Assembly: GCA_963700265.1 (NCBI GenBank)
Contig: CAVOWX010000002.1
Location: 343,648 to 407,647 of the forward strand
Reading direction: 5' to 3'
From: an uncultured Acidimicrobiaceae bacterium
Lineage (GTDB): Bacteria; Actinomycetota; Acidimicrobiia; Acidimicrobiales; Ilumatobacteraceae
Length of the DNA stretch: 64,000 nucleotides
The position numbers and the translations under genes are program-made. The notes beneath the pieces are model-generated. The model worked only from the letters and a program-made list of their open reading frames with translations. It searched no databases and was not told the origin of the DNA. This document shows, one piece after another, positions 40,521 through 60,392 of the stretch (its first letter is position 1; every line of letters starts with the position of its first letter).

Positions 40521-41068
40521 ACGGCCACCCCGAGCTGGGGCATCCAAATCAGCTTGGTGGGTTTTGATGATCCCGGGCGGCGATCTCGCCGAGGCGTGGC
40601 TCGTTGGAGGGCACTCGATAATTCCGATCGATAATGCGTCCCTGATGGGGCACCGATCCGCACAGCAGTCGACGCAGCGGCGGGCGATGTCGTGGTGGTC
40701 AAGCATGGCGCTGCGCTCGGTCGCAAATGCGTGCCCGGCAGCTCCCTCGGCGAGCGTCAGGTCATGCACGAGGGGCAGTCCGGCGAGTTCCTGCCCGAAC
40801 GCGTAACCCCGTCCGCTCGCCGCGGCGATCGTCCTGGCGATCTCGCGGTCCAGCCGGCCGAACCGATTGTCGCGGGCGACCCGGCCGGCCTTGGCGAACA
40901 GCCAAACGGCGCGGTCATCCAACGGGTGTCGTTCTGAACCGAGATGGCACTTCTTGTACTTCTTGCTCGACCCGCACGGACACGGATCGTTGCGCCCAGC
41001 GATGGTCGGTGGTCGATGGGTGGCAAACCCGATGACCTCGTCGATGAGGTCGTGGTCGGCGAGTTCCT
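40521..41068 (-). pseudogene. Fragment of a SEC-C motif protein
   Basis: GRNDPCPCGSSKKYKKCH; no credible start, and the reading frame begins at the right repeat copy. Confidence 0.55.
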
Positions 41069-41098
41069 CCACATCGAGTTCGAACGGGTCAGCTGACG
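41069..41098 (+). repeat. Right copy of the 30-bp direct repeat
   Basis: CCACATCGAGTTCGAACGGGTCAGCTGACG. Confidence 0.9.
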
Positions 41099-41263
41099 CT
41101 CCGTGTCCGAGGCACATCGCTGTCGATCGAGCGAGTCAGGACAGATCGATGATCGTGGCGATCCTTGGTTCGCAGATGAGTTCGATCAACGAAATCTTGC
41201 AGGAAGCACTCGAACCGGTAACCGTCGCGCCGCCGAGCGAGAACTGACGGCATGCCTGTGCGA

Positions 41264-42117
41264 CTACACGTCGAGCGAGAAGGTTACGGTGTAGTCGTTC
41301 ACGGCGGCGCCGTTTGCTTTGCGCTGAGTGAAGCGCAACGTCTTCGAAACGGACTCGAGGTCGTTGAGCGCCGACAGATCGTTTGTGGTCAGGGAGAGTT
41401 GCTGCACGCCGCCGATCAGATCATCGGCGTTCAAGTGCCCTGGGCTGAGCCCGAGCACCCGTGCCGTTTCGATCGTGCCGGTCATGTTGCTGATCATCGT
41501 GGTCACATACGACGAGTAGGGACGGTTCGTGTTCGTGACTCTGGCGGCAAGCAGTTCGGTGCGGACGACGCCTCGGATGGCATCGGGACTCGCCCCGTCG
41601 TTTTCCATCATGGCCACGAGGAAGATCACGTCCTGTGGGGCAGCGATCGGCTGCGCCAGACCATTCACGTTCCAGAAGGCAGGTCGATCCGCGCTCGGCA
41701 ACAGCGCCGCAAGATGCGTCCCTCCCGGGCCGACGCCTGACCACGGACCGACCTTCACCACGTTGATCGAGGGAAGTGCAATGCCGACGATTCCGGCATT
41801 CACGACGTTGGTCATGTCGAAGGTGGCGATGAGCAGGTATGGCTCATCGTGACCAACCTTGCGCGCTTCGCCGCGTGACAATGGATCTTGGCGACCGTCC
41901 CCAGGATGTTCTGTGGGATCGGGTTCTGGGCTTGCGCCTCCTGTGCGAGGCAGAGATCGAGGGCTCCTTCGGCGCTCTCGATGTCTGCGTCGATTCGGTC
42001 GAGTTGTGCCTGAGCCGCTTGAAGGCCGGCGCCCTGGAGGAACTGCATCACCTCGACTTGTTGGCGGCGTTGGGTGCGGAGCTGGGTCAGATCGGTTTGT
42101 AGTGCGGTGCATGACAT
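41264..42117 (-). CDS. Hypothetical protein (N-terminal coiled coil plus beta-rich DEPY domain), apparent frameshift near 41862
   Basis: MSCTALQTDLTQLR...KIHCHAAK joins KVGHDEPYLLIATFDM...YTVTFSLDV in another frame; GAGG RBS. Confidence 0.7.
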
Positions 42118-42165: not shown

Positions 42166-42193
42166 CAAGATCCACAGAACGAGCAACAGATAC
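42166..42193 (-). promoter_or_regulatory. Putative ECF sigma promoter P4: GTATC-N15-GGATCTTG
   Basis: Minus strand cGTATC tgttgctcgttctgt GGATCTTG, about 50 bp upstream of ATG 42117. Confidence 0.7.
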
Positions 42194-42228
42194 GTCGAGA
42201 CGACCCTTTGCTGTATGGATCTCGGGTG

Positions 42229-43878
42229 TCAGCAGACCTTGGTCACCGGGCCGGTTGCCTTCGTGTCGCTCGGCAACGTGAGGTCGACAAGTGCTACAGC
42301 CTTGCCCGGGCCGAGATCGGCACGCGTGGCCGAACCATCGCAGGGCACCTGAGGCTTGGCGCCGCTCCGCCCGAGCAGCACGCTCGCATCCCAGACCGAG
42401 ATGTGGTGTGTAGACATCAACTCTGCCAGGGATGCCGCAACGTGCGGAGTGGCGAACGACGTTCCCTGCACTTTCGCCCGGCCCTCGATCAGCACGCTCT
42501 CGACGAGCACTCCCTGCTCGTCGAACGACTCGAAGGTGATGTCGTCGGCATGCAGCGTGACGATGTCCACACCAGGTGCGTAGAAGTCGACCCACGACCC
42601 GCGAGCCGAGAATCCGGCGACGGGCCCAGTTCTGGACGTGGAGGTGATCGGACCACCATCGGCGTCGAGCGTTGCGTCGAGCGCGCCAACCGAGATGACC
42701 CCGGGAAAGCCGGCCGGGTACTCGCGGCGCTGGGTGCCATGGTTGCCCGCTGCTGCGATGATCGCCATCTCGCCGGGACGCCGGGGCGAGAGCCGCTGTA
42801 CGGCCTCGGAGGCGGCGCGAAGCGAAACCGGAACGAGTTCGTCGCCGGGCAACGCCGGATCGAGCTCGCACGCCATCGTCCCGAACGATGCGACCAGCAG
42901 GTTGGGCCAGAGGTTCGTCGCACTGCCGGAGATCGTGGTGACCATCCGCTTGGCCGACGTGAAATCAGTACTGACTCCGTCGCGTGTGATGCGGGCGTTC
43001 TCCACGATCGCGCCCGGCACGAGCGTGGCGATGTGGGCCGAGATCGCCAACCCATGGTCGACCCACAGATTGTCGGCGAGGCCCGGGACCTGACGGTCAG
43101 GAATCTCGACGTCTGCGGGGAGCACCGCGGTCACGTTGGGGATCAGTGCCGGTTCGGTGGTGGCGGCGAGGCCCGAGTCGAAGACCATGATCCGGGTACC
43201 TGCACCGAGTTCCGGTCCGCCCTTCTTGAACGGCTTGCGCGAAACGGGAAGTTCGCTCGTCGGCTGCGGGAGTCCGTCGGGCTGGAAGAAGTCGTGACCA
43301 CCTTGCAGCATGGTGACGTAGTCGGGTGCCGCTGCAACCCCGAATTCGTTGACGAGGTGGCGTGCAAGTCCGACGACGTCGTACGCGCCGCCGACGGGCA
43401 GTTCGAACGCGTAGACAGGGCGAATCGGTGGCTCGCCGTCGTCAATTGTCGGGAACACGATGGAGTCCACGGCGCGCGTCGTGGTGGGCAGCGACGAACC
43501 GATCGGAGCTCTCAGCGATCGTGTGCTCGTACGGTTCGCTCGAGCCGGGGATGACGGCGGTGACGGAGCGATCCACGCGTCGATCCATCCAGACACGGTC
43601 GCCGGCGATTGGTTGGTCTGAACGATGACCCGATTCGCGACGTATGCCACTTCGGCCAGCGGGCCGCCGCAGTTCGGTGAGTTGTCGTACTGGAGGTCGC
43701 CGAACCCTGACGGAATGGTCGGTTCGAGCACACTTGTCCGCACAACGGCCAGCGCTGCGTTTTGCGTGGGTTGCCCAGCGACCGCTGGGATGCCTGTGCC
43801 GATCGCGGCAGCCAGCGCGACGAGTCGTACGCCCCGAACGATGTGACGGTCCCGATGTGGGTGGAGTGTGTTCTTCAT
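42229..43878 (-). CDS. Subtilase (S8 family serine peptidase) with signal peptide
   Basis: Triad VFDSG, DHGLAIS, GTSFATPHVA; oxyanion AAAGNHG; YPAGFPGVISVGA. Confidence 0.88.
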   Translation of the reverse strand: MKNTLHPHRDRHIVRGVRLVALAAAIGTGIPAVAGQPTQNAALAVVRTSVLEPTIPSGFGDLQYDNSPNCGGPLAEVAYVANRVIVQTNQSPATVSGWIDAWIAPSPPSSPARANRTSTRSLRAPIGSSLPTTTRAVDSIVFPTIDDGEPPIRPVYAFELPVGGAYDVVGLARHLVNEFGVAAAPDYVTMLQGGHDFFQPDGLPQPTSELPVSRKPFKKGGPELGAGTRIMVFDSGLAATTEPALIPNVTAVLPADVEIPDRQVPGLADNLWVDHGLAISAHIATLVPGAIVENARITRDGVSTDFTSAKRMVTTISGSATNLWPNLLVASFGTMACELDPALPGDELVPVSLRAASEAVQRLSPRRPGEMAIIAAAGNHGTQRREYPAGFPGVISVGALDATLDADGGPITSTSRTGPVAGFSARGSWVDFYAPGVDIVTLHADDITFESFDEQGVLVESVLIEGRAKVQGTSFATPHVAASLAELMSTHHISVWDASVLLGRSGAKPQVPCDGSATRADLGPGKAVALVDLTLPSDTKATGPVTKVC

Positions 43879-43900
43879 GATCTGTGTCCCCTTGTGTGTG

Positions 43901-44371
43901 TCAGCTCAGCACGAACCAGTCGGTGCTGATCGTGCGGCCGGACGAATCGGTGAGCACGATCCGATGCGGACCGGTCGTGTTGGTAGTGAGGTTGAAGCTG
44001 CCCAGATCGTCGGCCTCGTCCGTTGCGACGACCTCCCCGTCGGAACCGACGAGCTGAATCGACGTGGACTCGCCGGTGATCAGTTGCCCGTTGATGTGTC
44101 CCGATTCGATGTCGACTACGAGTTCGGCTCTGCGGTCGGAGGTGGCGAACAGCAGACCCTCACCGGTGCCACCTCTCGTGCCGACCAACTCGTCGCCGGC
44201 TTCTTGGAGCAGTGCGTTGAGTTCTGCGTCGACGTCGAGCCACGTTGCCAGCTGTTCTGAGCGTTCGAGCAGACCATGTGGCAATGGGTCGGGCCCGAGC
44301 GCGGCGGCGAGTCGAGCAAGGAGTTGCTGTTCGTCAGCGGTGATGTCGTCTGGATCCGGGCGTTGGTTCAT
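43901..44371 (-). CDS. Putative anti-sigma factor (helical N-terminus, Gly-rich linker, beta-sandwich C-terminus)
   Basis: 156 aa directly after the ECF sigma gene; LLARLAAALGPDPLP...GTRGG...ADDLGSF...TDWFVL; anti-sigma role inferred from context. Confidence 0.6.
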   Translation of the reverse strand: MNQRPDPDDITADEQQLLARLAAALGPDPLPHGLLERSEQLATWLDVDAELNALLQEAGDELVGTRGGTGEGLLFATSDRRAELVVDIESGHINGQLITGESTSIQLVGSDGEVVATDEADDLGSFNLTTNTTGPHRIVLTDSSGRTISTDWFVLS

Positions 44372-44409
44372 GGGATTTCCTTGGTGTCGCGTCCGACACC
44401 GGTTGTTCG

Positions 44410-44437
44410 CAAGATCCTCGGTGATCGTGCTGGATAC
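44410..44437 (-). promoter_or_regulatory. Putative ECF sigma promoter P3: GTATC-N15-GGATCTTG
   Basis: Minus strand tGTATC cagcacgatcaccga GGATCTTG, about 40 bp upstream of ATG 44371. Confidence 0.75.
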
Positions 44438-44477
44438 AAGATTGTCGATGGGCACTGAGATCTGGTCGGCGGTGCGG

Positions 44478-45068
44478 TCATTGGTGGTTCTCCCGTGGGA
44501 GGAGCGACCGCAGTTGGTCGAGGCACCGACGCCGCGTCGGACCGAGCGAGCCACGCGGCCGACCGATCGATGCGGCAACCTCGTCGTAGCTCAGCGGCGG
44601 ATCACAGAGCATCAGCTGCAACAGTTGCCGACACTCGTCGCCGAGCAGCGCGAACGCGGTGCGTAGTGCCGTGGCGGTTTCGTCGGCAATGATGTTCGAG
44701 TCGGGTGCGGTGGGCTGCTCATCGCGTGGCTGGTCCCAAAACGCGGCCACAGGAACGGTGCGGGTGCGGGTGACCAATTTGCGAGCGTCGTTGCGCACCA
44801 CCATGCACAGCCACGGCCGCACCGAGCCCGGCGCCCGAAGTCCGTCCGCCCGTTCGATCAGTCGCAACCACGCGGTTTGGACGAGGTCGTCGCAGGTTGC
44901 AGGGTCGAGACGAAACGAACGGGCAACCGCGTACATACGAGGGCTGAGGCGACGAACGAGCACTGACCAGGCGCTCGATCGTTGCGCACCGCCACCCACG
45001 GCGAGGTGGAGCAACTCCTCGTCTGTCGCCTCGCCCAGGGCGATGTGATGGTCGCTCACTTCACTCAT
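44478..45068 (-). CDS. ECF RNA polymerase sigma factor
   Basis: Region 2 DDLVQTAWLRL...PWLCMVVRN; region 4 LSYDEVAASIGRPRGSLGPTRRRCLDQLR; ATGA overlap with the CHAT gene. Confidence 0.92.
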   Translation of the reverse strand: MSEVSDHHIALGEATDEELLHLAVGGGAQRSSAWSVLVRRLSPRMYAVARSFRLDPATCDDLVQTAWLRLIERADGLRAPGSVRPWLCMVVRNDARKLVTRTRTVPVAAFWDQPRDEQPTAPDSNIIADETATALRTAFALLGDECRQLLQLMLCDPPLSYDEVAASIGRPRGSLGPTRRRCLDQLRSLLPRENHQ

Positions 45069-47662
45069 CCTCGCCCCCACACCGTCAGCGTCTGGGCCGC
45101 AACCGTGTCGCGATGATCGGCGCGAACCTGCGCCAAGGCGGTCGCCGGGCCGACACCATCAGCCAGGTGCCGGTGCACCTCGGAGAGGACACGACACGTC
45201 ATGGCATCGTCGGGCAAGAGGGTCGCCGATGCGATGACGGACCGCGCTCCCATGTGCAACAGCGCCGACGCAAACCCAGGCAAGGCAGCACCCGAGGGGC
45301 CAGCGGACACCCCGGACTCACATGTGGACAACACCACCAGCGAGGCGACGACCCGCCGCCTCGTGAGCTCATGCAGCACCAGTGGTCCGTCGGAGAGTTC
45401 GAGTGTGGACCACATCGGATTGTCACGACGGATCCTGGTGTGTGCCGCGAGATGGACGGTGTCTGACGTTCGCATCGCTTCGATCACGGCGTTGCGATGG
45501 GCGTCGTCACCGTGGAGCTGTGTTGCGCTCGGATAGTGCCCGGCAACCAACATGGCTTCGTGTCCGGCGAACTGCAGTCGCGGACCGGCGACGGTCGTGA
45601 CGTGGTCGAGGCGTCGTGGCCGCGCTCGTGTTGTTTCGCACCACCAGCTCAGCGACGGAACCTGCGTGAACGAGCGAGACACCAGCGATCGGGTTGCCGA
45701 CCACGGAGCACGCTGAAGTTCGTCTGGCATCGCGATGATCACCGGTCCATCGGCCAACTCGAGCGGTTCGAGCACGAGTTGGTCGAGCCGATCGAGCGCG
45801 AACCGCTGGCGTCGCACTAGATCGTCCGATGGTGGTTCGGCATCACCGGCGCGGGCGCGAGCTGACAGAAGCCGGGCCGATGCTGCGCATGCCCGCAACA
45901 CATCGTCCGTTGATCCCAGATCGACGGCTCGGGCTGTTCCGCACTCGACCACGATCGCCAGGACCCGGTCGCCATGCGTGTCGATGGAAATCCCAACGTG
46001 GTCGTGCAATCGCTGCGGGTCGAAGCACAATCCGCGGTGCGTCGCCGAGGTTGTTCGCCCGCTGCTCAGCAAGTCATCTCGCAGGGCGGTTTCGAGTTCG
46101 ATTCTGCGTCGATCGAGTGCCTCGCTGTCACGGCCCGACGATGCCGGTCGTGTCTCCGACTCTCGGATCTCGGTCAGCACCGAGCGCAGCTCGGAAGTCT
46201 TGCGCACGTCGAGCACCACTGCGGCAGGCATCCAGACAGGAACAGCGAAACGGCGCTGCTCGCTCCAGGCCAGGGTTCGAACCGGTTCATCGAGGCGCAC
46301 GGCCACCTCGGATCCGAGCGCCGAGAGAGCAGATGCATGCAGTGCCGATCCGCTACGTGCATCGGCACTGCCGATCGCTCTCCGGTACTGGTCGAACTCG
46401 CTCAACGCTGCGGTGATCGTCTCGAGTGCTTCTCGGTTGTGGCCGGCGGCGGCGTCAACGGCTGCCGCCGCGTGCGCTGCGGCCAGGCGATGTTCGACGA
46501 ACGGAATCGAGGCGGCGGTACGAGCACACTCCCGCGCCGCATGCTCCGCTCGGCGGGCGTCACCGAGCGACAGGGCGATCTCGGCGACGAGTTGCCATGC
46601 CTCGACCTCGAGGCGAGCTTGCCCGGACGTGGCCAAACGAGTGGCGATCTGCTCGGCGGAATCGAGCACCGTGACATCGGACTCGCCATCGCGGGCCAAC
46701 GATCGCAGCAACTCGAGTTGGGCCTGGAAGAGATGTCCAGTTGCGCCGAGGTCCTCGAAGATGGCGGCGGCTGCCTGGGCGAGCGCTCCGCTTCCGGACT
46801 TGCCGGCGAGTCGACACGCTTCTGCCTGCAAGAGGAGCGCTTCGGCAACGCCGGCACGGTCGCGTTCCGCGGCGAGTGCTTCCACGACGCGCTGGAGACC
46901 ATCGATGGCATCGTCGAAAAGCCCAGCGGTCATCAAGGCCTCTGCTCTCGACACCGCCGCGTCCTGCAAGTGGTGGTCGTGTCCAGCGGCGGCATCGCAC
47001 GCTTCGTCGAGCAACACCAACGCCTTCGGAATGTCGCCGAGGTTCACATGCGCCCACGCCATGTTCTCGATCACGAGGATGACGGCGAAGTCCTGGCCCG
47101 CTTCGGCAAAGAGATTGCGGGCTTCTGCGAAGTCGTCGAGCGCCCGGAGTGGGTCGCCGCGCAACACATTCAGTGACCCTCGGTTCGAAATGACCCGGGC
47201 GGTGGTGACGATGTCCGCGGACAACCGCAGCGCCGGGAGCGCGTCCTCGTACAGCGCCAGTGCCTCATCGAGGCGACCTTCGCGTTTTGCCAGGACAGCG
47301 CGCTGAATGTTGACCTGGGTGCGCATCCGCGGCGATCCGTGGCGCTCGGCTTGCGCCAGGTGCACGGCAGTGAGCGTCGCTCCTCGAGCGAAGGTGGCGA
47401 CCGATGCCGCAACGAGGTGGGCATCGGCCAACACGTCGCCTCCGACACGCGCTGCGACCGAGATCGCATCGTCGATGGCGCGCTCGGCGAGATCGATCTC
47501 GCCGAGATTCCGCCGAGCCCGCGCCACCACCGTCGCGGCGACGGCCGTCGTTTCGAGGTCACCGCCGGAGCGCGCGATCTCCGCGATGTGAGCGGCGCGG
47601 GCGGCGACTTCGCGGGGGTTCTTATCGACGTTCGCGCCGAGCTCCTCCAGCTCGGTGATCAT
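45065..47662 (-). CDS. TPR-CHAT (caspase-like) protease
   Basis: N-terminal TPR-like repeats; CHAT domain with catalytic His (VHLAAH) and Cys (VVLSTCESG), GARSVIAS. Confidence 0.88.
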   Translation of the reverse strand: MITELEELGANVDKNPREVAARAAHIAEIARSGGDLETTAVAATVVARARRNLGEIDLAERAIDDAISVAARVGGDVLADAHLVAASVATFARGATLTAVHLAQAERHGSPRMRTQVNIQRAVLAKREGRLDEALALYEDALPALRLSADIVTTARVISNRGSLNVLRGDPLRALDDFAEARNLFAEAGQDFAVILVIENMAWAHVNLGDIPKALVLLDEACDAAAGHDHHLQDAAVSRAEALMTAGLFDDAIDGLQRVVEALAAERDRAGVAEALLLQAEACRLAGKSGSGALAQAAAAIFEDLGATGHLFQAQLELLRSLARDGESDVTVLDSAEQIATRLATSGQARLEVEAWQLVAEIALSLGDARRAEHAARECARTAASIPFVEHRLAAAHAAAAVDAAAGHNREALETITAALSEFDQYRRAIGSADARSGSALHASALSALGSEVAVRLDEPVRTLAWSEQRRFAVPVWMPAAVVLDVRKTSELRSVLTEIRESETRPASSGRDSEALDRRRIELETALRDDLLSSGRTTSATHRGLCFDPQRLHDHVGISIDTHGDRVLAIVVECGTARAVDLGSTDDVLRACAASARLLSARARAGDAEPPSDDLVRRQRFALDRLDQLVLEPLELADGPVIIAMPDELQRAPWSATRSLVSRSFTQVPSLSWWCETTRARPRRLDHVTTVAGPRLQFAGHEAMLVAGHYPSATQLHGDDAHRNAVIEAMRTSDTVHLAAHTRIRRDNPMWSTLELSDGPLVLHELTRRRVVASLVVLSTCESGVSAGPSGAALPGFASALLHMGARSVIASATLLPDDAMTCRVLSEVHRHLADGVGPATALAQVRADHRDTVAAQTLTVWGRG

Positions 47663-47670
47663 CGCCGCAA

Positions 47671-47676
47671 ATACTA
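47671..47676 (-). promoter_or_regulatory. Housekeeping-type -10 box (TAGTAT) for a near-leaderless CHAT-sigma transcript
   Basis: TAGTAT 8 nt upstream of ATG 47662; no RBS. Confidence 0.5.
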
Positions 47677-47763
47677 CGCTGCCCGTCAGGCACGCGAGCC
47701 GCGGGTTTCGTCGGGATGCCGACCATCGGTGCTATGCAGCCGAACCGATGGTCAGCTACCTGG

Positions 47764-50700
47764 TCACAGGAGCCAATCGGATGGAATCTCGACAGTTTCG
47801 CGATAGACCAACTCGACATCTTCGACGGCAGCGCCGGTGTCCGCATCGGTCCGCATGACCGGTTCGAGATCTTCGAGCACCAACCGGAGGTTGGTGCTCG
47901 ACGTCGGCAAGGTGATCACACCTCGATGCCGGGTCGTTCCCCGTACGACGCTCGGGGACAACGTGACGATCATTGGGTCGAGCCCGTCGAGGAGATCGGC
48001 CCAGCGTAGATCCGGATCGGTGATGCCGGTATCGGCCTGTTGGACCCGAACCTGGACGGTGTGATCGATGGGGGCATGCCACATCGAACACAGCACGTCG
48101 CCGGGCGTCGCTTGGCGCTGTGCGGCTGTCCGGCGTCGGGGGCCGAGTCGGACCGGATCGGTCCCCACCTCGTCGGACAGAGCCAGCCCGTCGAGTGCGA
48201 TCGGCTGATAGCGGGCGAGTGTGAGCTGGAGGAACGGTCGTTCGCCGATCTCGGCCTCGATCGGAACATCGGCAATCCAGACGCCTCGTTCCGCATCGAA
48301 GACGACGGCGTGCGCGGCGACATCGGCATCGCCGACGTGCGCGGTCTCGGTGGCGGCCGGAAACATGCCGACCATCGGTGCGACGATCTCAGCTCCACCG
48401 GAGACGAGTGGATCGCGTCCCCAACGGGTGCGGGTCGGAACGGTTCCAGCTGGCGGGTTGCGGTCGAGGACGACCGCAAGGCGTTCTTCTTCGCCGCTCG
48501 ACCACCACGGACGCTCGAGCATCACTCGCACGACTCGACCATCATGATCGACGATGATCCGGTCGTCGGCTTCGTCGATGGTGCGCGTGGCGGCAGGAAC
48601 CACCCCGGCGACGACGGGAGGCGTCGGGCGAATCGCGGCGGGAAACACCTGGGTCGTAGTACCTCGAGGGGCATCGATCGAAGGGCGCGAGATCGGGAGA
48701 GGGATGTATCTGACGGTGAGATCGGTGTCGAGTTCCAGCGAGCCTGTGGGAACCCGGGTGATCGTTCCCGTTGCGCGATCGACCGTGAAGTCGATGTCGC
48801 GCCGCAACGTCGCACCGTCCGCATCGACGATCTTCACCGAGCGAGGCACGACGCCTTCGGTGACCGGCAGAACGGCGAGACCCGACGCCGCCGGGATACG
48901 GAAACCATCGACCTGTTCGGTGAAGTACCTACTGAAGCGACTGAAGGCGGTCATCTGCAATGTCACCGTGTGCCGACGTGGGTCGACCAAGTCGAGCGTC
49001 GTGCCGTCGAGCAGTCCGACGTGCTCCCAGTCATCGGGGCCCAGCTCGATCGGTACCGCCGTGTCGGCTCGATAGCTGCGTTCCGATGGAGCGGTGTCGG
49101 CCAGAACGTCGACCGGATCGGTCCAGTCTCCGATCAGTACGACGCGTTCGGTCGACGGTCGGTCGATGTTGATCCCCGTCGTGATCGCACCGAATCGACT
49201 GCCTGCGTCCCGCGACAGCGCGGGCACGGCGCCGCTGAACGTGGCCGGCTCGACCGGAACTCGAACGGCATGAACGAGCGTGAGCGGCGCACGGGCGGAC
49301 ACGATGTGGTGGCGCCCGCGCTCGATCAGATCGCGTAGTTCGTGCTGGCGCGCCGGAGCCAGCATGCGATACGCATCGAAGTGCTCGACCAGATCGGTGG
49401 CCACCGTGTGCGACAGTTCGATCTCGCGGACGCGGCCGCGGGCAACCCAGAAGCGCAATGGCTCGACGGCACCTTCGGGAGGAATCTCCGTGGCGTCGTC
49501 GCCGGCGTGGAGCTCGACCTGGAGTGCCCGTTGTTCCGGCCAGCTACCGCGGTACGTCGTCGTGATCGGATCGATCTCGCCGGGTGCTCCGCCGAACGTC
49601 ACGCCGGTCGCTGCGGGATCGACGATGTAGTTCGCGAGAGGCTGATCGTCGGCAGGGACATGTTGACCGTCGGCGCCGAACGAGCCTGACACGAGATCAC
49701 CAGTCACCGGGTCCGCACCAACTTGGTCGTCCAAGCGAAGCGCGTCGCGCTCGGCCAGGAAGTCGTACGACGCCGGGTCGACCCCGCCGGCGGGGAGGCC
49801 GTGGAGTTCGAGGCGAGCTTGGGACAGCCGCGGCGGATACATGTGGCGAGTCGTGATCGCGATGTCTTGGTCCGGCTGGTCCAGCTCGCTTTTGATGACG
49901 AGCGTCGCAGCCGTATCGCCGACCCCTGGAATCGCCTTGGGAACGGTTCGGATCGGTATCGGCGCCAGCACCGGTTGGGTGCGACCGAACGTAATGGGTG
50001 GCGAAACCGCCTCGTTCGGTGCCACCTCTGCGACCGTCCTGGAGTTGCCGGCGAGATCCGTTGCGCGCGCCCGCATTTGGTAGGTGTTGCCGTAGCGGAG
50101 TCGTGGCAACGTGCCAGGCACTGGTCGATAGTCGACTTCGAGTTGGGCGGCCTGGCCGGTGACCACCTTGTTGCCGGCCGGCTCCACCGCTCGGCCGGAA
50201 CTGCTCAGTGAGCTCCCTGGGTGAGGTGTTGCCGCCGACCACCCGTTCCATCTGAAGGCCTCGATCGGAAGACGCCACGTCGTCTGATCGTTCGCCTCGT
50301 CCTTGTGGATGTCGGGCTTGCCCTCCTGGGAGTAGGTCACCCGAGTCGATCTCGGCGTGTGCAACTCGTCGCCTTCGGTCGAGACGGCAAGTGTCCACCT
50401 ACCCTCGTCGTCCGGAACCTCGATGTCGAGTGCCGGTACACGTGGAAAGGTGTACCCGGCGATCGAACGGCGCTCGAACGGCGACCGCCAGGTGGGGTCG
50501 TCGAGATCGATGAGGTCGTACCGGTAGCCGGCCGCAACGTCTTCGAGTCCGATGATCGGTGGACGGTTGATGCGATTCGTCAACCATCTGTCGATGTCGT
50601 CCTCGAGGTTTCGCTGGTGAGTCAGTCGTCGGCTCATCGAGGCTGCGAGGTCGGTGTGAACCACCGCGATGCCCGCTTCGAGCGGTGCGGGGATCGGGGC

Positions 50701-51591
50701 TGCGCCATCGCGCGCCACGACGGTCCGCTGGAAGTCGAGCAGTCGTTGCGAAGCACTCGCCAGGTCGCTGGTGGTCATCCTGTAGCGCTCACCGTTGTTC
50801 AGTTTGAGGTATTGGCCCACGTGCTCGTCGGGGAACAGCGGCAGCGGCCAGAGCTCGCCATCGAGTTGCATCACCAGCGGGCACTCATCGCGGGCACCGG
50901 CGCCTGTTGTCGCGGCCCAGTCAGTGCGCACTCTGATCATTCGAGGTGGCGGCGCCAACGGCTGGAGTTCGATGTCGAGATCAACAACCAGGCCGAGCAG
51001 CCGCAGCAGATGCGGGTGAGCCCGGAGAATGGTCAACATCTGATGGAACTCGATGCCGGGGCCATCGAGCGGTACGACTGCTGGCTCTGACGTCGGAAGG
51101 AGGTGCTTCTCGGCATCGAGCAAGGTCGAGCCCTTGAAGATCGCCGATGCGGTGAGTGCGAGCACTTCACGACTGGTCGGGGGGCTTTCAGGGAACTTGT
51201 CGGATACTTCCGCATACAGGTCGCGGAGTGCGTCAACCACCGGCACGCTCGGAAACGCGCGAAACTCGGTATGGCGGCGATCGACGAAGCTGTACTGATC
51301 GACCGGTTGTGACGATGTGGCGGCACGACCGAAGAGCGCCTCCCACACGTCCAGGCGCGGCGTCGGGCTGACGACGGTGATACGAGCCGGGTTGATCGGA
51401 GCCGGCGCCCTGTTGAACAGGACGTCGAAGGAGAGCGCGGCAGCGATCGTCGGCCAATGCGCCCAGTCGAGTGAGTAGTCGGCCAGGGTGCCCTTCTCGT
51501 GAAGGCGCGGGACGAGCGCAACCGAGACGTGCAGCGTGTCGCCGCTGGCCCCGGTTGTCATGGGGATGGTGATGAGTTGGCGGTACGGCAT
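47764..51591 (-). CDS. Large uncharacterised protein B (1275 aa, Pro- and beta-rich)
   Basis: Long ORF with GAGG RBS, 11 nt after protein A; Ig/FnIII-like segment LRYGNTYQMRARATDLAGNS; no signal peptide or TM seen. Confidence 0.85.
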   Translation of the reverse strand: MPYRQLITIPMTTGASGDTLHVSVALVPRLHEKGTLADYSLDWAHWPTIAAALSFDVLFNRAPAPINPARITVVSPTPRLDVWEALFGRAATSSQPVDQYSFVDRRHTEFRAFPSVPVVDALRDLYAEVSDKFPESPPTSREVLALTASAIFKGSTLLDAEKHLLPTSEPAVVPLDGPGIEFHQMLTILRAHPHLLRLLGLVVDLDIELQPLAPPPRMIRVRTDWAATTGAGARDECPLVMQLDGELWPLPLFPDEHVGQYLKLNNGERYRMTTSDLASASQRLLDFQRTVVARDGAAPIPAPLEAGIAVVHTDLAASMSRRLTHQRNLEDDIDRWLTNRINRPPIIGLEDVAAGYRYDLIDLDDPTWRSPFERRSIAGYTFPRVPALDIEVPDDEGRWTLAVSTEGDELHTPRSTRVTYSQEGKPDIHKDEANDQTTWRLPIEAFRWNGWSAATPHPGSSLSSSGRAVEPAGNKVVTGQAAQLEVDYRPVPGTLPRLRYGNTYQMRARATDLAGNSRTVAEVAPNEAVSPPITFGRTQPVLAPIPIRTVPKAIPGVGDTAATLVIKSELDQPDQDIAITTRHMYPPRLSQARLELHGLPAGGVDPASYDFLAERDALRLDDQVGADPVTGDLVSGSFGADGQHVPADDQPLANYIVDPAATGVTFGGAPGEIDPITTTYRGSWPEQRALQVELHAGDDATEIPPEGAVEPLRFWVARGRVREIELSHTVATDLVEHFDAYRMLAPARQHELRDLIERGRHHIVSARAPLTLVHAVRVPVEPATFSGAVPALSRDAGSRFGAITTGINIDRPSTERVVLIGDWTDPVDVLADTAPSERSYRADTAVPIELGPDDWEHVGLLDGTTLDLVDPRRHTVTLQMTAFSRFSRYFTEQVDGFRIPAASGLAVLPVTEGVVPRSVKIVDADGATLRRDIDFTVDRATGTITRVPTGSLELDTDLTVRYIPLPISRPSIDAPRGTTTQVFPAAIRPTPPVVAGVVPAATRTIDEADDRIIVDHDGRVVRVMLERPWWSSGEEERLAVVLDRNPPAGTVPTRTRWGRDPLVSGGAEIVAPMVGMFPAATETAHVGDADVAAHAVVFDAERGVWIADVPIEAEIGERPFLQLTLARYQPIALDGLALSDEVGTDPVRLGPRRRTAAQRQATPGDVLCSMWHAPIDHTVQVRVQQADTGITDPDLRWADLLDGLDPMIVTLSPSVVRGTTRHRGVITLPTSSTNLRLVLEDLEPVMRTDADTGAAVEDVELVYRETVEIPSDWLL

Positions 51592-51602
51592 GGTGTTGGT
51601 CC

Positions 51603-54464
51603 TCAGGCGAAGGCGGCGGTGTACTCGTCCGCCCATTCGGTAGTGGTGAAGCGGTCACGGAACGAAGGTGGTCCGGCCGTCGTGGTTGACGATGAGGTGA
51701 GCGCGGCGAACGCCGAACGAGACCCGTTCTCGGCGCCGCCGTCACCGGCGAGGTCGAACGTGACATCACCGATCGGGATCGACCCGCTGGCGCCACCGAG
51801 GAATGTGTCGACGGAGTAGGTGATGCGACCGGAAAGCTTGAGGTCTTCGTTGGCTGATCGGTAGCGTGCCGACGCGACGATGCCGACACTGACGTCGAGA
51901 AGACCGAGCACCGAGATGTTGCCTTCGATCCCGACCGAACCGATGAACGTGATGTCCCCGTCCCTGAGCTTGAACAGCGCCGAGATGCGCAGCGTGATGT
52001 CGGCGGACGCCACCACGATGTCGATTCCGTAGAGCATCGCTTCGAGCTCGACGCTGGCCGTGAGTCGACGTAAACCCCCGTTGCCGGGAGAGATCTCGAC
52101 TTCGATGTAGAACTCGGCGCCGTATCCCAACACGCTGATCTCGACTGGCTGGGCAGCCGAGCCGAGCCCGAGCGACACGTCGGGAACGAATCCTGCCGTG
52201 AATGGGAGGTCGATCCCGGCAAAGATCGCGGCGTTGCTGATCGACACCACACCGAGATCAATTGCGGGAAGGGGAATGTCGGTTGCGATCTCGAGGGCCA
52301 ACGGGGTGATGTTGATCAATCCGTCACCGAGCTTGTCGAGCAGGTTGGTGAGTGGCTGCAACCAGGTCAGCAGCGAACCCCATCGCCAGTCCTCCAGCCG
52401 CGGATCGACACGGAGGCCGTCGGACGTGCTCTCGATCACTTCGACACGGCTGAAGTCGAGTTCGACCATGGCGGCGAACGGAGGGATCGTCACCGTGACG
52501 TCGTCGAGCCGGATCGTGAGGGTGTTGTCGGGCTCGCCATCGATCGGGACACATGAGACGTTCTCGATGAACGCCCGCGGATCATTCCCACGCACCTCGA
52601 AGCCGAGATCGGGGAAGGATTGGATCTTCGGCGTGAATGTGAAGACGGCCTTGAACCCCGACTCGTCGAAGCTCACGTCGAGCCCGGGAACGTCGACTCC
52701 CGGGAGCGCATCGCCGAAACTGATCGGCGGCATGATCCGATCGAGTGGGATGAATCCAAGCAGGCTCGACGCGGTGCCGAGCGCATCTTCGGCCGAGAAC
52801 TCCTGCGTGATGTCGACCAGGTCGAGACCGACGCCAACGGTCTGATTGAACACCTCGGCAACCAAATCGATCGCGGCAACGGCTCGAGCCGCACCGCCCA
52901 ATGCCTTCTCGACGGCTACGTCGAGTTTGAGGAACGCTTGATCGAAGTTGGTTGCGTCGAGTCCGAACTCGATCCAACGATGGTGCAGCGTGACGAGCAG
53001 CTCAGCGAACTCGTCACCGACTGCCGCGCTGATCGCATCGTCGATGATGGTGGCCCACTCGACCTCTGGGAACAGACCGAGCCGGAAGGCGTCCTCTAGG
53101 TCGGTCGTCGAGGCGCCGTCGGCACCTGTGAAGGTCAGCTGCACCTGGTTGGTCGAGAATGTCGTCTTGCCGAGACCTACTGCTAGTTCGTCGGCGAATG
53201 CCACCGACTGACCTTTGAGATCGAACGTTCGGCGCGACTCCGAGCCCGCCGCTGACAACAGGGCCGTGACCCGTTGGAGGGTCGCGCCCGGCGCCGTGTC
53301 GAAGGCGTGCTCCTTGTCGATGATCGTTGCGCCGAGCCCGAATGAGATCTGAGATCCTCCAGCACGATCGGTGGCGTCGAAGGACACCACGAGCTGTGTG
53401 CCGTCGTCCTTGACGATGACGTCGAAGGCACCCGGAATCGGCCCGTCGTCATCGGTCACCTCGATCAGCTCGATCGGGATCCACTCAGTGGACACTGCAT
53501 CGATCGAGGCGAACGGAAAGCCTCGTCCACCATGAGGGCGATAGGCCATGCCGGGATCCACCAAGTCGGGATCGGCGCTGTCGAAGGTGACATTCGGCGC
53601 GTCGACGCAGAGAAAGAGCTCGTGCTGTAACACGGCAATCGCCTGCCCGGTCTGGTCCGGTACGAGGCGACGGCTATTGACGTCGAGGATCTTCACTTGA
53701 TGCCCGAAGGGCAAGAGGAATCCCTCCTGCACCACCTCGGCGACAATGTCGCGCCCGGCGAGAACCGTGTGGCGCCAACGCTCGGTCTGGGCGCCGGGCC
53801 AGCGCCCACTGAAACGAGCGAACGCACCCTGGCTCGACAGCTCGAGTCGTCCAGCCTGAGCAGGACCGATCGTGGTGGTGTTGGCGATGAGGTCGTCGCG
53901 GGTGTCGTGGTCGGGGACCGGATTGCTCACGCTGTCCCCGAAGCCGACGTTGTGAACGGCGATCACTTCGAGCGGCGTCGAACCGTCGGATACCAGCTGT
54001 AGCCGCCAGAGTTCGGTGACATCGCCCTCGGTTCGGGGGAACCCAGTAGTCGTCAGCCCAGTCGAACCAGCGGGTGCGACAATGAGCCCAGTCGGGATTT
54101 CCAGCGCAGTCTCGTCGTCACCCGGCTTTCCGGTGTGGGTCGGTGAGCGGAGCTCCCACGTGGCCGTGTGGAGCAGCGCCTCCACGGTGAACGGAAGCGG
54201 AGTCGGCAGTGAGGTGACCAACCGAGACATGCCGGCAGTTCGGCCGATGACCGGTTCGGTCGCGGGAGGACTGACGATCACATCAGCGAACGCGTCCTCA
54301 GCCGCGTGTTGAGCGCCGAACACGACACGCATTCGTGGGTCGCCACCAGGTACCGCATTCAGTTCGTTGGCGGACGAGTCGAGCGTGACGTCGTTGAGTT
54401 CGAGCAAGAGATCGAGTTGATCGGCGGGACGGATGACGCGAACGACAAGAGGGCTGCCACTCAT
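51603..54464 (-). CDS. Large uncharacterised protein A (about 953 aa, acidic, amphipathic beta-strand C-terminus)
   Basis: AGGAG RBS before ATG 54464 (alternative start 54470); ends FRDRFTTTEWADEYTAAFA. Confidence 0.85.
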   Translation of the reverse strand: MSGSPLVVRVIRPADQLDLLLELNDVTLDSSANELNAVPGGDPRMRVVFGAQHAAEDAFADVIVSPPATEPVIGRTAGMSRLVTSLPTPLPFTVEALLHTATWELRSPTHTGKPGDDETALEIPTGLIVAPAGSTGLTTTGFPRTEGDVTELWRLQLVSDGSTPLEVIAVHNVGFGDSVSNPVPDHDTRDDLIANTTTIGPAQAGRLELSSQGAFARFSGRWPGAQTERWRHTVLAGRDIVAEVVQEGFLLPFGHQVKILDVNSRRLVPDQTGQAIAVLQHELFLCVDAPNVTFDSADPDLVDPGMAYRPHGGRGFPFASIDAVSTEWIPIELIEVTDDDGPIPGAFDVIVKDDGTQLVVSFDATDRAGGSQISFGLGATIIDKEHAFDTAPGATLQRVTALLSAAGSESRRTFDLKGQSVAFADELAVGLGKTTFSTNQVQLTFTGADGASTTDLEDAFRLGLFPEVEWATIIDDAISAAVGDEFAELLVTLHHRWIEFGLDATNFDQAFLKLDVAVEKALGGAARAVAAIDLVAEVFNQTVGVGLDLVDITQEFSAEDALGTASSLLGFIPLDRIMPPISFGDALPGVDVPGLDVSFDESGFKAVFTFTPKIQSFPDLGFEVRGNDPRAFIENVSCVPIDGEPDNTLTIRLDDVTVTIPPFAAMVELDFSRVEVIESTSDGLRVDPRLEDWRWGSLLTWLQPLTNLLDKLGDGLINITPLALEIATDIPLPAIDLGVVSISNAAIFAGIDLPFTAGFVPDVSLGLGSAAQPVEISVLGYGAEFYIEVEISPGNGGLRRLTASVELEAMLYGIDIVVASADITLRISALFKLRDGDITFIGSVGIEGNISVLGLLDVSVGIVASARYRSANEDLKLSGRITYSVDTFLGGASGSIPIGDVTFDLAGDGGAENGSRSAFAALTSSSTTTAGPPSFRDRFTTTEWADEYTAAFA

Positions 54465-54502
54465 CACCATGGGCTCCTGAGAAGTTCCGGTTGCATGACC
54501 TG

Positions 54503-54530
54503 CACGACCCGTCACCGGTGTGCTGGATAC
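54503..54530 (-). promoter_or_regulatory. Putative ECF sigma promoter P1: GTATC-N15-GGGTCGTG
   Basis: Minus strand tGTATC cagcacaccggtgac GGGTCGTG; shares the 12-mer TGTATCCAGCAC with P3. Confidence 0.75.
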
Positions 54531-54560
54531 ACAAAACGATGAATTGCCTTCGAGAAAACC

Positions 54561-54588
54561 GTATCCAGACTGTTGGGAGGGGGTCATG
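54561..54588 (+). promoter_or_regulatory. Putative ECF sigma promoter P2 (divergent from P1): GTATC-N15-GGGTCATG
   Basis: Plus strand cGTATC cagactgttgggagg GGGTCATG. Confidence 0.7.
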
Positions 54589-54593
54589 GGTGT

Positions 54594-54719
54594 ATGCCAA
54601 GCCTCGGTCACTTCTACGCAGCCAAACTCCTGACCTCCGGTCTCGAGGCCAGTGCAAGGCGGCCCTCTCGTCGACGTCGACGAGTGTTGCGATGGCTCCG
54701 CCCACGACGTCAGTGCTGA
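54594..54719 (+). CDS. Putative leaderless 41-aa Arg-rich small protein
   Basis: [41 protein letters not shown]; ATG 5 nt after the P2 motif. Confidence 0.5.
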   Translation: MPSLGHFYAAKLLTSGLEASARRPSRRRRRVLRWLRPRRQC

Positions 54720-54859
54720 TGGCTACACGGGAATTCCGAACTCGGCGGCGTTGCCGGGTCGGTACGGCCCGGTCTCGCTGCAGCGACTCCAGCATCGGCG
54801 TGTGGTCTGTTGCGGGCGGGGCGTCGGCGTTGCTTGGCCCACATGGCGGGCAACGAGCG

Positions 54860-56188
54860 TCAGCCGGGGATCAGGCGGTGCAGGGTGCCGCCTCGTTCGA
54901 GTAGGTACAGCTCGCCGTCGGGGCCGGCGCGTATGGTCGACACACTCGAGAATCCGTCGAGCAGGGTGAGGTTGCGGCCGCCGACGAGGTCGAGCGCCCA
55001 CACGATCCCCGAGCAGTAGTCGCTGTACACGTAGGCGGGTTCCAGGTCAGGAATCGCAGCACCTCGGTAGGGCACGCCACCGGAGATCGAGCACCCGTCG
55101 TCGCCGTGGCGGTAGGTCAACACGGGCATGACGGGGTTGGTGTCGGCGACGTCGGCGTTGAATCGTTCGGTGCCCTCGAACGCGCTCCACCCGAAGTCGG
55201 CGCCGCGCCCGGCGGTCGTCCCGTCGATGGCCGTGACGTGATTGACCTCCTCGATCTCGTTCTGGCCGACATCGGCGATCCAGAGGTCTCCGTTGATCGG
55301 GTCGAAGGCGAACCTCCAGGGGTTGCGCAGCCCCCACGCCCACACCTCGGGCGCACCGGTGATGCCGTTGAACGGGCCGGAGGCGAACGGGTTGTCGGCA
55401 GGAATCGTGTACGGGTGGTCACTGGAGGGACGAGGGTCGATCCGCAACAGCGACCCCAGCAAGGTCGACGGATCGCTGGCGTATCGCTGCGGGTCGCCGC
55501 CTGATCCGCCGTCTCCGAGGGCCACGAACAGCATGCCGTCCGGCCCGATTTCCAGGTCGCCGCCGTTGTGGTTCCCGTATGGCTGCTCGACCGTCAGCAA
55601 CACCCGTTCGGCCGCCACGTCGAACTGGCCATCGGCATTCACGGGATACTCGGCGATGACGGTGTCGCCGTCGAGGTCGGTGTAGTCGACGTAGGCCAAG
55701 CTGCCGTCGCTGCTGAACGCCAATCCGAGCAACCCTTGCTCGCTGTCACTCTCGGTTCGATCGGACAGGTCGGCGACCACGCCCGCACCGTCGCTCGTGA
55801 GGCGGACTACACGGCCGCCCTGTTCGACGATGTACAGCGACGCATCGTCGGTTCGGAAAGCGAGATCGACCGGCTGCTCGAACTGGGCGACGGCGACCGA
55901 CGTGACGTTCGGGTCGCCGACCGTCGGCTCGGGCACCGGTGGTGACGAAGCCGTTGGCGGGGCCGGCGTGGGTGCCGGTTCGGGCACGGTGGCGGTCGTG
56001 CCGCCGGGGACCGGTGCTGTCTCCGTTGGGATCACGGTCGTCGCTGCGACGGTGGTCGGTGTGACGGTCGTCGCCGTGACGGTGGTCGGTGTGACGACCG
56101 CCGTGCCGCGTTCGACGGACGAGTCGTCGTCGGCGCACGCCGCCAGCAGCAACAGAGCGACGATCGGCGCCCCGATCCGGGCCATCAT
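54860..56188 (-). CDS. PQQ-dependent sugar dehydrogenase family (GSDH) lipoprotein
   Basis: Lipobox LAAC, Thr/Pro linker, EQGLLGLAF, NHNGG, GDGGSGGDP, GLRNPWRFAFD, ADVGQNEIEEVN, YSDYCSG. Confidence 0.9.
   Translation of the reverse strand: MMARIGAPIVALLLLAACADDDSSVERGTAVVTPTTVTATTVTPTTVAATTVIPTETAPVPGGTTATVPEPAPTPAPPTASSPPVPEPTVGDPNVTSVAVAQFEQPVDLAFRTDDASLYIVEQGGRVVRLTSDGAGVVADLSDRTESDSEQGLLGLAFSSDGSLAYVDYTDLDGDTVIAEYPVNADGQFDVAAERVLLTVEQPYGNHNGGDLEIGPDGMLFVALGDGGSGGDPQRYASDPSTLLGSLLRIDPRPSSDHPYTIPADNPFASGPFNGITGAPEVWAWGLRNPWRFAFDPINGDLWIADVGQNEIEEVNHVTAIDGTTAGRGADFGWSAFEGTERFNADVADTNPVMPVLTYRHGDDGCSISGGVPYRGAAIPDLEPAYVYSDYCSGIVWALDLVGGRNLTLLDGFSSVSTIRAGPDGELYLLERGGTLHRLIPG
56048..56096. repeat. 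19-bp direct repeat at 30-nt spacing encoding the VTPTTV linker
   Basis: gacggtggtcggtgtgacg at 56048 and 56078. Confidence 0.8.
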
Positions 56189-60310: not shown

Positions 60311-60361
60311 GATGATTGGACGTTCCTTCAGACCGATCGGTTCCCGACCATCCTGACACCG

Positions 60362-60392
60362 ATGACGGAGTGTGCCAGGCACACTCCGTCAT
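60362..60392. repeat. Perfect 15-bp inverted repeat (REP-like palindrome)
   Basis: ATGACGGAGTGTGCC-A-GGCACACTCCGTCAT; a related half copy lies at 57769-57787. Confidence 0.85.

What the first reader, a model, noticed from the sequence alone, without database searches (positions are those of the whole stretch)
42166..54588. Four copies of the promoter-like motif GTATC-N15-GGrTCnTG define a local regulon
Seen: P4 42166-42193 (-) GTATC..GGATCTTG; P3 44410-44437 (-) GTATC..GGATCTTG; P1 54503-54530 (-) GTATC..GGGTCGTG; P2 54561-54588 (+) GTATC..GGGTCATG. All four are intergenic, have an exact 15-nt spacer, and point at a start codon 5-50 nt downstream. P1 and P3 share TGTATCCAGCAC. Known: ECF sigmas read short -35/-10 pairs at strict spacing and often target their own locus. 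Inference: this is the recognition sequence of the encoded sigma.
Basis: partly seen in the sequence, partly recalled or inferred. Interest (0 to 1): 0.85.

Follow-up and report, generated by a model that had tools for sequence, protein, structure and literature searches.

The report
Variant ECF54 sigma promoters, four copies
The four repeated motifs are real and are likely the promoters read by the neighbouring sigma factor, a branch of a catalogued but untested family with its own promoter variant, predicted to switch on its own inhibitor, an exported protease, two large unknown proteins and a tiny peptide.

Summary
Observation confirmed: 4 exact copies in the window (0.01 expected), 5 in the 5.1-Mb genome. 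The adjacent sigma fits group ECF54 (TPR-CHAT protease, subtilase, carboxypeptidase-regulatory-like +1 gene), whose published -35 is GTATCAG, so half the motif is known. The -10 GG(A/G)TCnTG replaces the family's nnCTC(T/C) and tracks one sigma clade: 33 hits in 19 of 21 newly fetched clade loci, 0 in 61 other ECF54 loci, 0 in 18 unrelated-ECF loci. Start codons cluster 33-35 nt after GTATC, which places the likely transcription start and shows P2 pointing at a leaderless 41-residue peptide with look-alikes in relatives. The +1 protein is predicted to bind the sigma (0.77, best control 0.00; mark reached by 116 of 157 solved, 2 of 215 mismatched pairs), so P3 likely drives an anti-sigma. The sigma gene itself is likely not autoregulated, and relatives also carry distant sites. 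Release by CHAT cleavage at a conserved arginine is inference only. This scan noted ECF54 cassettes and the anti-sigma idea before on four other genomes. No transcript data. Verdict: new variant of a known kind.

The parts
41264..42117 (-). P4 target: about 283-aa hypothetical protein, broken by one frameshift near 41863 (real or assembly error)
   Evidence: 100 homologues, mostly 283-285 aa; P0122 matches residues 1-85 and 85-283 in two frames at 89% and 86%; no Pfam or PADLOC family
42166..42193 (-). P4, predicted promoter just after the subtilase gene
   Evidence: top-ranked site genome-wide with a matrix trained on other genomes; a site at this position in 12 of 21 clade loci
42229..43878 (-). 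S8 subtilase, N-terminal hydrophobic stretch, D/H/S motifs present; downstream of P3
   Evidence: Pfam PF00082 E 2e-17; motifs located; hydropathy
43901..44371 (-). 156-aa soluble protein, predicted anti-sigma: N-terminal helices, linker with conserved Arg66, C-terminal carboxypeptidase-regulatory-like domain
   Evidence: homologue after the sigma in 60 of 66 loci; PF13620 in 26 of 61 family members, not in this one; Arg66 in 59 of 61; complex prediction
44410..44437 (-). P3, predicted promoter between sigma and anti-sigma
   Evidence: same position in 5 of 5 and 19 of 21 clade loci
44478..45068 (-). ECF sigma factor, 196 aa, ECF54-type, divergent region 2.4
   Evidence: Pfam Sigma70_r2, TIGR02937 above cut-off, alignment and tree
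45065..47662 (-). TPR-CHAT caspase-like protease, His741/Cys781 present; stop overlaps the sigma start
   Evidence: Pfam CHAT E 1e-21 and TPR_12; dyad in 23 of 23 clade loci aligned
47671..47676 (-). TAGTAT, likely housekeeping -10 of a leaderless CHAT-sigma transcript
   Evidence: TANNNT 5-9 nt before a CHAT start in 13 of 14 loci where the start was located, of 24 examined
47718..47756 (-). Strong hairpin after the 1275-aa gene; possible end of the P1 transcript
   Evidence: no shuffle control, no U-tract; not listed as terminator
47764..51591 (-). 1275-aa unknown protein; predicted FN3/Ig-like domains in residues 541-1153 of the folded part; second gene under P1
   Evidence: 107 other homologues; model pLDDT 92; best Z 8.4, rmsd 7.0, 288 aligned
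51603..54470 (-). 955-aa unknown beta-rich protein; predicted long C-terminal beta-sheet; first gene under P1
   Evidence: model pLDDT 78; residues 715-917 match parts of outer-membrane barrels, best Z 12.3, rmsd 3.6, 181 aligned; closest orthologue L145 has the same promoter type
54503..54530 (-). P1, predicted promoter of the 955/1275-aa pair
   Evidence: variant site before the orthologue in G1210
54561..54588 (+). P2, predicted promoter back-to-back with P1
   Evidence: back-to-back pairs in L170, L171, L173, L182
54594..54719 (+). Predicted leaderless 41-aa peptide, hydrophobic start and Arg-rich tail
   Evidence: ATG 33 nt after GTATC as in 12 of 58 clade sites at 33-35; ranks 1 of 70,879 ATG-ORFs in a post-hoc anchored comparison; missed by an unanchored HMM

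Best explanation
The four motifs are likely the -35 (GTATC) and -10 (GG[A/G]TCnTG) elements read by the ECF54-type sigma at 44478-45068, which is predicted to be held inactive by the soluble protein encoded right behind it and would be freed when the neighbouring TPR-CHAT protease cuts that protein. Shown: the motif, its spacing, its positions, its co-occurrence with this sigma clade, the conserved gene set. Inferred, with my odds: the sites are this sigma's promoters (0.9); transcription starts 33-34 nt after GTATC (0.8); the +1 protein is an anti-sigma (0.75); CHAT and sigma are made from a separate housekeeping-type leaderless promoter, so the circuit is pre-loaded and not autoregulated (0.7); CHAT cuts the anti-sigma at the linker Arg66 after an unknown signal reaches its TPR repeats (0.45). 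Once free, the sigma would turn on P3 (anti-sigma, giving negative feedback, plus the exported subtilase), P4 (283-aa gene), P1 (the 955/1275-aa pair, interchangeable cargo) and P2 (leaderless peptide). The changed -10 would keep this switch apart from the genome's second ECF54 copy on contig C23.
For: Published ECF54 context and -35 GTATCAG. Family register GTATC-N18-TC: 202 of 869 GTATC, against 42-104 at offsets 7-37 otherwise. Matrix from 8 non-self clade sites ranks the window sites 1, 2, 3 and 7 in the genome. Strict pattern: 33 hits in 19 of 21 new clade loci, 0 in 61 other-ECF54 loci (1.1 Mb), 0 in 18 unrelated-ECF loci. G1210 has a clade sigma and 5 exact sites; 4 genomes searched beside it have 0. 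Paralogue sites score -6.4 to 4.5 on the clade matrix and 11.6 to 18.2 on the family matrix. ATG peak at 33-35. Sigma plus +1 protein: score 0.77, best of 3 controls 0.00, mark reached by 116 of 157 solved and 2 of 215 mismatched pairs, runs share at least 92% of contacts, partner pLDDT at least 76; partner residues 7-45 touch both sigma domains and Arg66 is not among the listed contacts. CHAT dyad and Arg66 kept in 23 of 23 clade loci aligned. Precedent for CHAT cutting an anti-sigma: Csx29/Csx30/CASP-sigma (PMC10028731, passages).
Against: No transcript, TSS or binding data. The published ECF54 -10 is CTCC, not this one. The clade is one origin (SH-aLRT 93, quick tree) and its loci are kin, so the counts overstate independence and no residue can be singled out; 5 family loci with ordinary region 2.4 also show a purine site. 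Background is not zero: 11 of 35 same-genus genomes without the clade sigma hold one match each, and P4 also scores 17.6 on the family matrix. The complex score may reflect likeness to solved sigma/anti-sigma pairs and was run with my own alignments. Nothing here tests cleavage; Arg specificity of this CHAT is assumed from relatives recalled from memory, and Csx30 is cut elsewhere. The hairpin has no U-tract, so P1 read-through into CHAT-sigma is not excluded.
Confidence: 0.7

Rival explanations
1. The sites are this sigma's promoters and the +1 protein is its anti-sigma, but release is by another route (ligand binding to the beta-sandwich, a general protease, or CHAT acting as scaffold or on another substrate such as the sigma or the peptide).
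For: Co-occurrence of CHAT does not name its substrate; in the Haliangium system SAVED-CHAT cuts neither the sigma nor the inhibitor (10.1101/2023.06.23.546230, passages). Some family loci showed no CHAT hit in the fetched stretch. Arg66 could be structural.
Against: Dyad and linker Arg are both kept in 23 of 23 clade loci; Arg66 in 59 of 61 in a weakly conserved linker outside the predicted interface; CHAT and sigma overlap at stop/start.
Confidence: 0.3
2. The motif is read by the genome's other ECF54 sigma (contig C23) or by both, i.e. the -10 difference is drift without insulation.
For: Both share GTATC and the T-C core; 5 family loci have purine sites; P4 scores well on both matrices.
Against: 0 strict hits in 61 other-ECF54 loci against 33 in 21 clade loci; the C23 and G1210 paralogues keep C-type sites beside them.
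Confidence: 0.08
3. The motif is an operator for some other regulator, or a chance or duplicated sequence.
For: P1 and P3 share 12 nt; single chance matches occur in about a third of genomes.
Against: Spacers are otherwise unrelated, the motif is asymmetric and oriented, sits at fixed distance from leaderless starts and matches a published ECF -35.
Confidence: 0.03

Closest known systems
ECF group ECF54 (Huang et al. 2015, not held and not read, seen only as cited; Casas-Pastor et al. 2021, PMC7826278: main-text passages and the ECF54 section of the supplement read; PMC8999054: passages)
   Same: Actinobacterial ECF with carboxypeptidase-regulatory-like gene at +1, subtilase at +2, TPR-CHAT nearby; -35 begins GTATC.
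   Different: -10 is GG[A/G]TCnTG rather than CTCC and the sixth -35 base is mostly C/T rather than A; CHAT at -1; those papers state no anti-sigma, whereas the +1 protein is predicted here to be one; leaderless peptide targets and the housekeeping promoter of CHAT-sigma are not mentioned in the text I saw.
Type III-E CRISPR Csx29 (TPR-CHAT) / Csx30 / CASP-sigma (PMC10028731, passages)
   Same: TPR-CHAT protease, soluble anti-sigma and ECF sigma with motifs in its own locus.
   Different: No Cas genes seen among the ORFs scanned; anti-sigma is 156 aa with a different domain; no PDB sequence match for this CHAT at E 0.001; signal unknown; outputs are mostly exported proteins.
Class I anti-sigma/ECF pairs such as RseA/RpoE (recalled; PMC7406223 seen as a search listing only)
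   Same: N-terminal helices predicted to bind both sigma domains; anti-sigma transcribed by its own sigma.
   Different: Soluble, no membrane helix; no sequence match to solved anti-sigmas.
SAVED-CHAT/PCaspase/PCc-sigma (10.1101/2023.06.23.546230, passages); DdvA/DdvS (PMC11506125, listing and abstract start only)
   Same: CHAT domain coupled to a sigma factor.
   Different: No SAVED, second caspase or kinase here; CHAT is a separate cytoplasmic protein, not part of a membrane anti-sigma.

Membership tests
ECF54 | ECF sigma in Actinobacteria | tested here: met
   TIGR02937 73.7 bits over cut-off 42.9; close relatives lie in records titled Ilumatobacteraceae, Acidimicrobiaceae and Micromonosporaceae-type genera
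ECF54 | Carboxypeptidase-regulatory-like protein at +1 | tested here: met
   PF13620 in 26 of 61 aligned members; the window's own copy has no hit at E 0.01 and belongs by homology
ECF54 | Subtilase at +2 or -1 | tested here: met
   PF00082 at +2
ECF54 | CHAT/TPR protein nearby (usually +3 or -2) | tested here: met
   PF12770 and TPR_12 at -1, not the usual position
ECF54 | -35 GTATCAG | tested here: inconclusive
   GTATC met; window sites read GTATCCA x3 and GTATCTG
ECF54 subgroups s1-s3 | -10 CTCC | tested here: not met
   GG[A/G]TCnTG in all four sites and across the clade; so not filed under s1-s3, for which alone the motif was reported
ECF54 | Scores to the ECF54 group HMM / clade in the published tree | not testable with these tools
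   No ECF Hub models held; my tree nests the clade among CHAT-linked sigmas with CTC promoters but is a quick, midpoint-rooted tree
Anti-sigma factor | Binds and inhibits the sigma | tested here: inconclusive
   Predicted binding 0.77 vs best control 0.00 (116 of 157 solved, 2 of 215 mismatched reach the mark); inhibition untested
CASP / Craspase (type III-E) | Cas7-11 and Csx30/Csx31 in the locus | tested here: not met
   No such Pfam or PADLOC hits among the 18 and 7 proteins scanned
Active CHAT protease | His/Cys dyad | tested here: met
   His741 and Cys781 in 23 of 23 (the script's Cys counter pointed at 782 and reads 0, the printed strings show the Cys); activity and specificity untested

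The most novel reading that the evidence does not exclude
ECF54 cassettes are Cas-free caspase-gated sigma switches, and in this clade the switch makes its own signal: the conserved leaderless peptide transcribed from P2-type promoters is the ligand or substrate that feeds back on the TPR-CHAT sensor (possibly after trimming by the co-induced subtilase), giving a self-contained peptide-protease loop that controls swappable exported cargo, with paralogues insulated by a one-base -10 change.
Probability: 0.1. Interest if true: 0.75.

Novelty: new variant of a known kind. Interest (0 to 1): 0.42.

Why it matters
ECF54 has no experimentally studied member in the text I saw and is listed as lacking an anti-sigma. 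This locus supplies what a test needs: four promoters with a predicted start position, a natural pair of promoter classes in one genome, a candidate soluble anti-sigma with a candidate cut site, and a read-out for asking what activates a stand-alone bacterial TPR-CHAT protease. The clade could also give an orthogonal ECF/promoter pair. It does not reveal a new kind of system, and the activating signal stays unknown.

Tried and rejected
No RNA run was listed for 45000-54900; no evidence either way. Sigma-70 consensus scan: 1 site, 1.1 expected; terminators 4, 6.9 expected. Structured RNA after P2: z -0.38, rejected. A decayed or frameshifted longer gene after P2: codon scores ambiguous and no homologue among loci held; less likely than the peptide, not excluded. 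Unanchored HMM of 10 leaderless peptides did not report the P2 peptide among 2,188 scored of 70,879; pairwise shuffles reached the observed score in 4, 1, 78, 0 and 185 of 300. In 110 C-type family sites there is no clear ATG peak at 33-35. A single specificity residue: mutual-information scan dominated by clade-wide differences. Function of the two large proteins: no Pfam, PADLOC or PDB sequence match, only weak NCBIfam hits below cut-off; Foldseek TM-scores 0.13 or less; Atlas gave hypothetical clusters for homologue P0028 and nothing for the 955-aa protein; domains were not folded singly, so 'no known fold' is not claimed. Direct genome scan with the 1290-aa ORF found no relative. The pair as a core cassette part: rejected, no sigma/CHAT/S8/anti-sigma hit in 14 plus 16 fetched loci, several truncated. 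Anti-sigma vs sigma profile comparison: nothing. Literature searches for the variant, a tested ECF54 or the peptides returned only the classification and review papers; GTATC and ECF54 had 0 hits in 8 Todor 2020 supplements. Huang 2015, the cut part of the Casas-Pastor supplement and ECF Hub logos were not seen and could hold this variant.

Full report
Observation. The pattern occurs four times in the window at the stated places, against 0.01 expected, and five times in the 5.1-Mb genome, the fifth inside a coding frame. Only the 15-nt spacer is enriched. Distances to start codons and the shared P1/P3 12-mer are as described.

Locus. On the minus strand: a 955-aa and a 1275-aa unknown protein, a TPR-CHAT protease whose stop overlaps the start of an ECF sigma, a 156-aa protein, an S8 subtilase and a frameshifted 283-aa gene. 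P1 precedes the 955-aa gene, P3 lies between sigma and the 156-aa gene, P4 follows the subtilase, and P2 faces away, back-to-back with P1. This gene set is the published context of ECF54, with predicted -35 GTATCAG and -10 CTCC for its three largest subgroups and no anti-sigma named (PMC7826278 supplement section; main-text passages; PMC8999054 passages).

The family promoter. I fetched DNA around 66 other homologous sigmas; three matches on very short contigs were not extended. Of 869 GTATC words, 202 have TC at offset 23, against 42-104 at other offsets from 7 to 37. At 54 sites just before or after the sigma (pre-filtered for GTATC and that TC), 49 have C before the TC. So the window motif is in the family register but has a purine there, preceded by GG and followed by nTG.

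The variant follows one sigma clade. The five closest sigmas from metagenomes (53-68%) all carry the variant. A matrix from their 8 sites ranks the window's sites 1, 2, 3 and 7 in the whole genome. A site lies between sigma and the +1 gene in 19 of 21 and just after the subtilase in 12 of 21. These loci are kin and some are near copies, so the counts overstate independence. Genome-wide, ten clade genomes hold 1-7 sites each (31 in all, reversed control 0), some on other contigs. Among 40 same-genus genomes the five with the clade sigma hold 4, 3, 3, 1 and 1; of the other 35, 11 hold one each and none more. The second ECF54 cassette of this genome and that of G1210 keep C-type sites. The clade differs in sigma region 2.4; by my recalled RpoE numbering this is the helix of Asn80/Asn84, which Todor et al. 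tie to -11 and -12/-13 (PMC7776599 passages). All 11 purine sites near a sigma have Asn at the Asn80-equivalent and Arg/His there goes with C in 31 of 31, but Asn also goes with C 18 times and five non-clade loci have purine sites. One origin cannot name a residue.

Start site and P2. In 12 of 58 clade sites an ATG lies 33-35 nt after GTATC, with at most 3 at any other offset; I read these as leaderless genes marking the transcription start, which puts GTATC near -34 and the T-C near -11/-10. Ten of them are 55-73-aa peptides or frameshift-extended forms with a hydrophobic start and basic tail. P2's ATG is at 33 and gives 41 residues of the same build. It ranks 1 of 70,879 ATG-ORFs in a start-anchored comparison designed after I saw the likeness; an unanchored HMM missed it and pairwise shuffles were mixed. 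A further same-genus example appeared afterwards (L206). In L170, L171 and L173 the peptide promoter is, as here, one of a back-to-back pair. The window peptide lacks the conserved C-terminal end of the 55-aa subgroup.

Not autoregulated. A TANNNT hexamer lies 5-9 nt before a CHAT start in 13 of 14 loci where the start was located, of 24 examined, and a strong hairpin follows the 1275-aa gene; no clade locus showed a same-strand variant site directly before CHAT. CHAT and sigma are therefore likely made constitutively; read-through from P1 is not excluded.

Anti-sigma and release. The +1 gene is found after the sigma in 60 of 66 loci. The predicted complex scores 0.77 against 0.00 for the best control; the mark was reached by 116 of 157 solved and 2 of 215 mismatched pairs, runs share at least 92% of contacts, partner pLDDT is at least 76, and the partner's N-terminal helices touch both sigma domains. 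This supports, and does not show, binding, and may reflect likeness to solved pairs. A linker Arg is kept in 59 of 61 homologues, and Arg and CHAT dyad in 23 of 23 clade loci. Cleavage there is an inference by analogy with Csx29/Csx30/CASP-sigma; the SAVED-CHAT case shows a CHAT need not cut the sigma's partner.

Cargo. The 955/1275 pair occurs in 14 of 400 other genomes of the order and 19 of 300 of the family, without the cassette in the 30 loci fetched. A twin-arginine-like signal matched in 12 of 28 homologous loci, 10 convincing by eye, but not in the window copy. Its closest orthologue (64%) has a variant site upstream and a clade sigma in the same genome, so the link to this sigma predates this genome. 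Models suggest a long beta-sheet and FN3-like domains; function is open, most likely a surface or exported assembly. Other clade loci put RCC1-repeat proteins, RTX-repeat proteins or an amino-acid permease behind the same promoters.

Prior notice. Four earlier notes of this scan describe ECF54 cassettes on other genomes with the anti-sigma and arginine idea; I had stated that reading before seeing them, and they are not independent support. Eight paper searches found no tested ECF54 and no such variant; Huang 2015 and part of the 2021 supplement were not available and may bear on novelty.

Verdict. Real feature; first reading supported and refined; new variant of a known, untested kind; interest 0.42.

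Noticed in passing
L069 (G000:C23:1-20000): Second ECF54 cassette in this genome (sigma 36% identical, anti-sigma-type gene, subtilase, CHAT) with C-type promoter sites, one driving a 797-aa gene.
   Followed up: partly
L171:12673-12837, L173:13756-13920, L181:14171-14338, L182:15603-15767, L183:14477-14641, L206: Family of leaderless 55-59-aa peptides with a conserved C-terminal end finishing in His-Pro-Glu-x-Trp; no Pfam hit for the one scanned.
   Followed up: partly
L072, L075, L079, L080, L081, L083, L084, L088, L125 and others: C-type ECF54 promoters drive two further conserved families of 60-70-aa basic small proteins with ribosome-binding sites.
   Followed up: no
L178, L179, L180, L181, L182, L183, L185: Large exported RCC1-repeat proteins sit behind the clade promoter after the subtilase.
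   Followed up: partly
window 41264-42117 (-): Well conserved 283-aa protein family with named members in Archangium, Methylococcales and a cyanobacterium, no Pfam or PADLOC family; window copy frameshifted.
   Followed up: partly
window 47764-54470 (-): The two large genes form a widespread unannotated pair, often with a twin-arginine-like signal on the first; some 1275-aa homologues add FN3 or peptidoglycan-binding domains.
   Followed up: partly
window 58178-60382 (-): Beta-propeller-domain gene (PF09826) whose C-terminal end reads as if out of frame; with the break at 41863 this hints at assembly indels.
   Followed up: no
window 40482-41117 (-): Short SEC-C-motif ORF that looks like a fragment, at the downstream edge of the cassette.
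   Followed up: no
L086 (G292:C21): Sister lineage sigma with its own region 2.4 and two GTATCT-N14-GGATGG sites, possibly a third promoter class.
   Followed up: no
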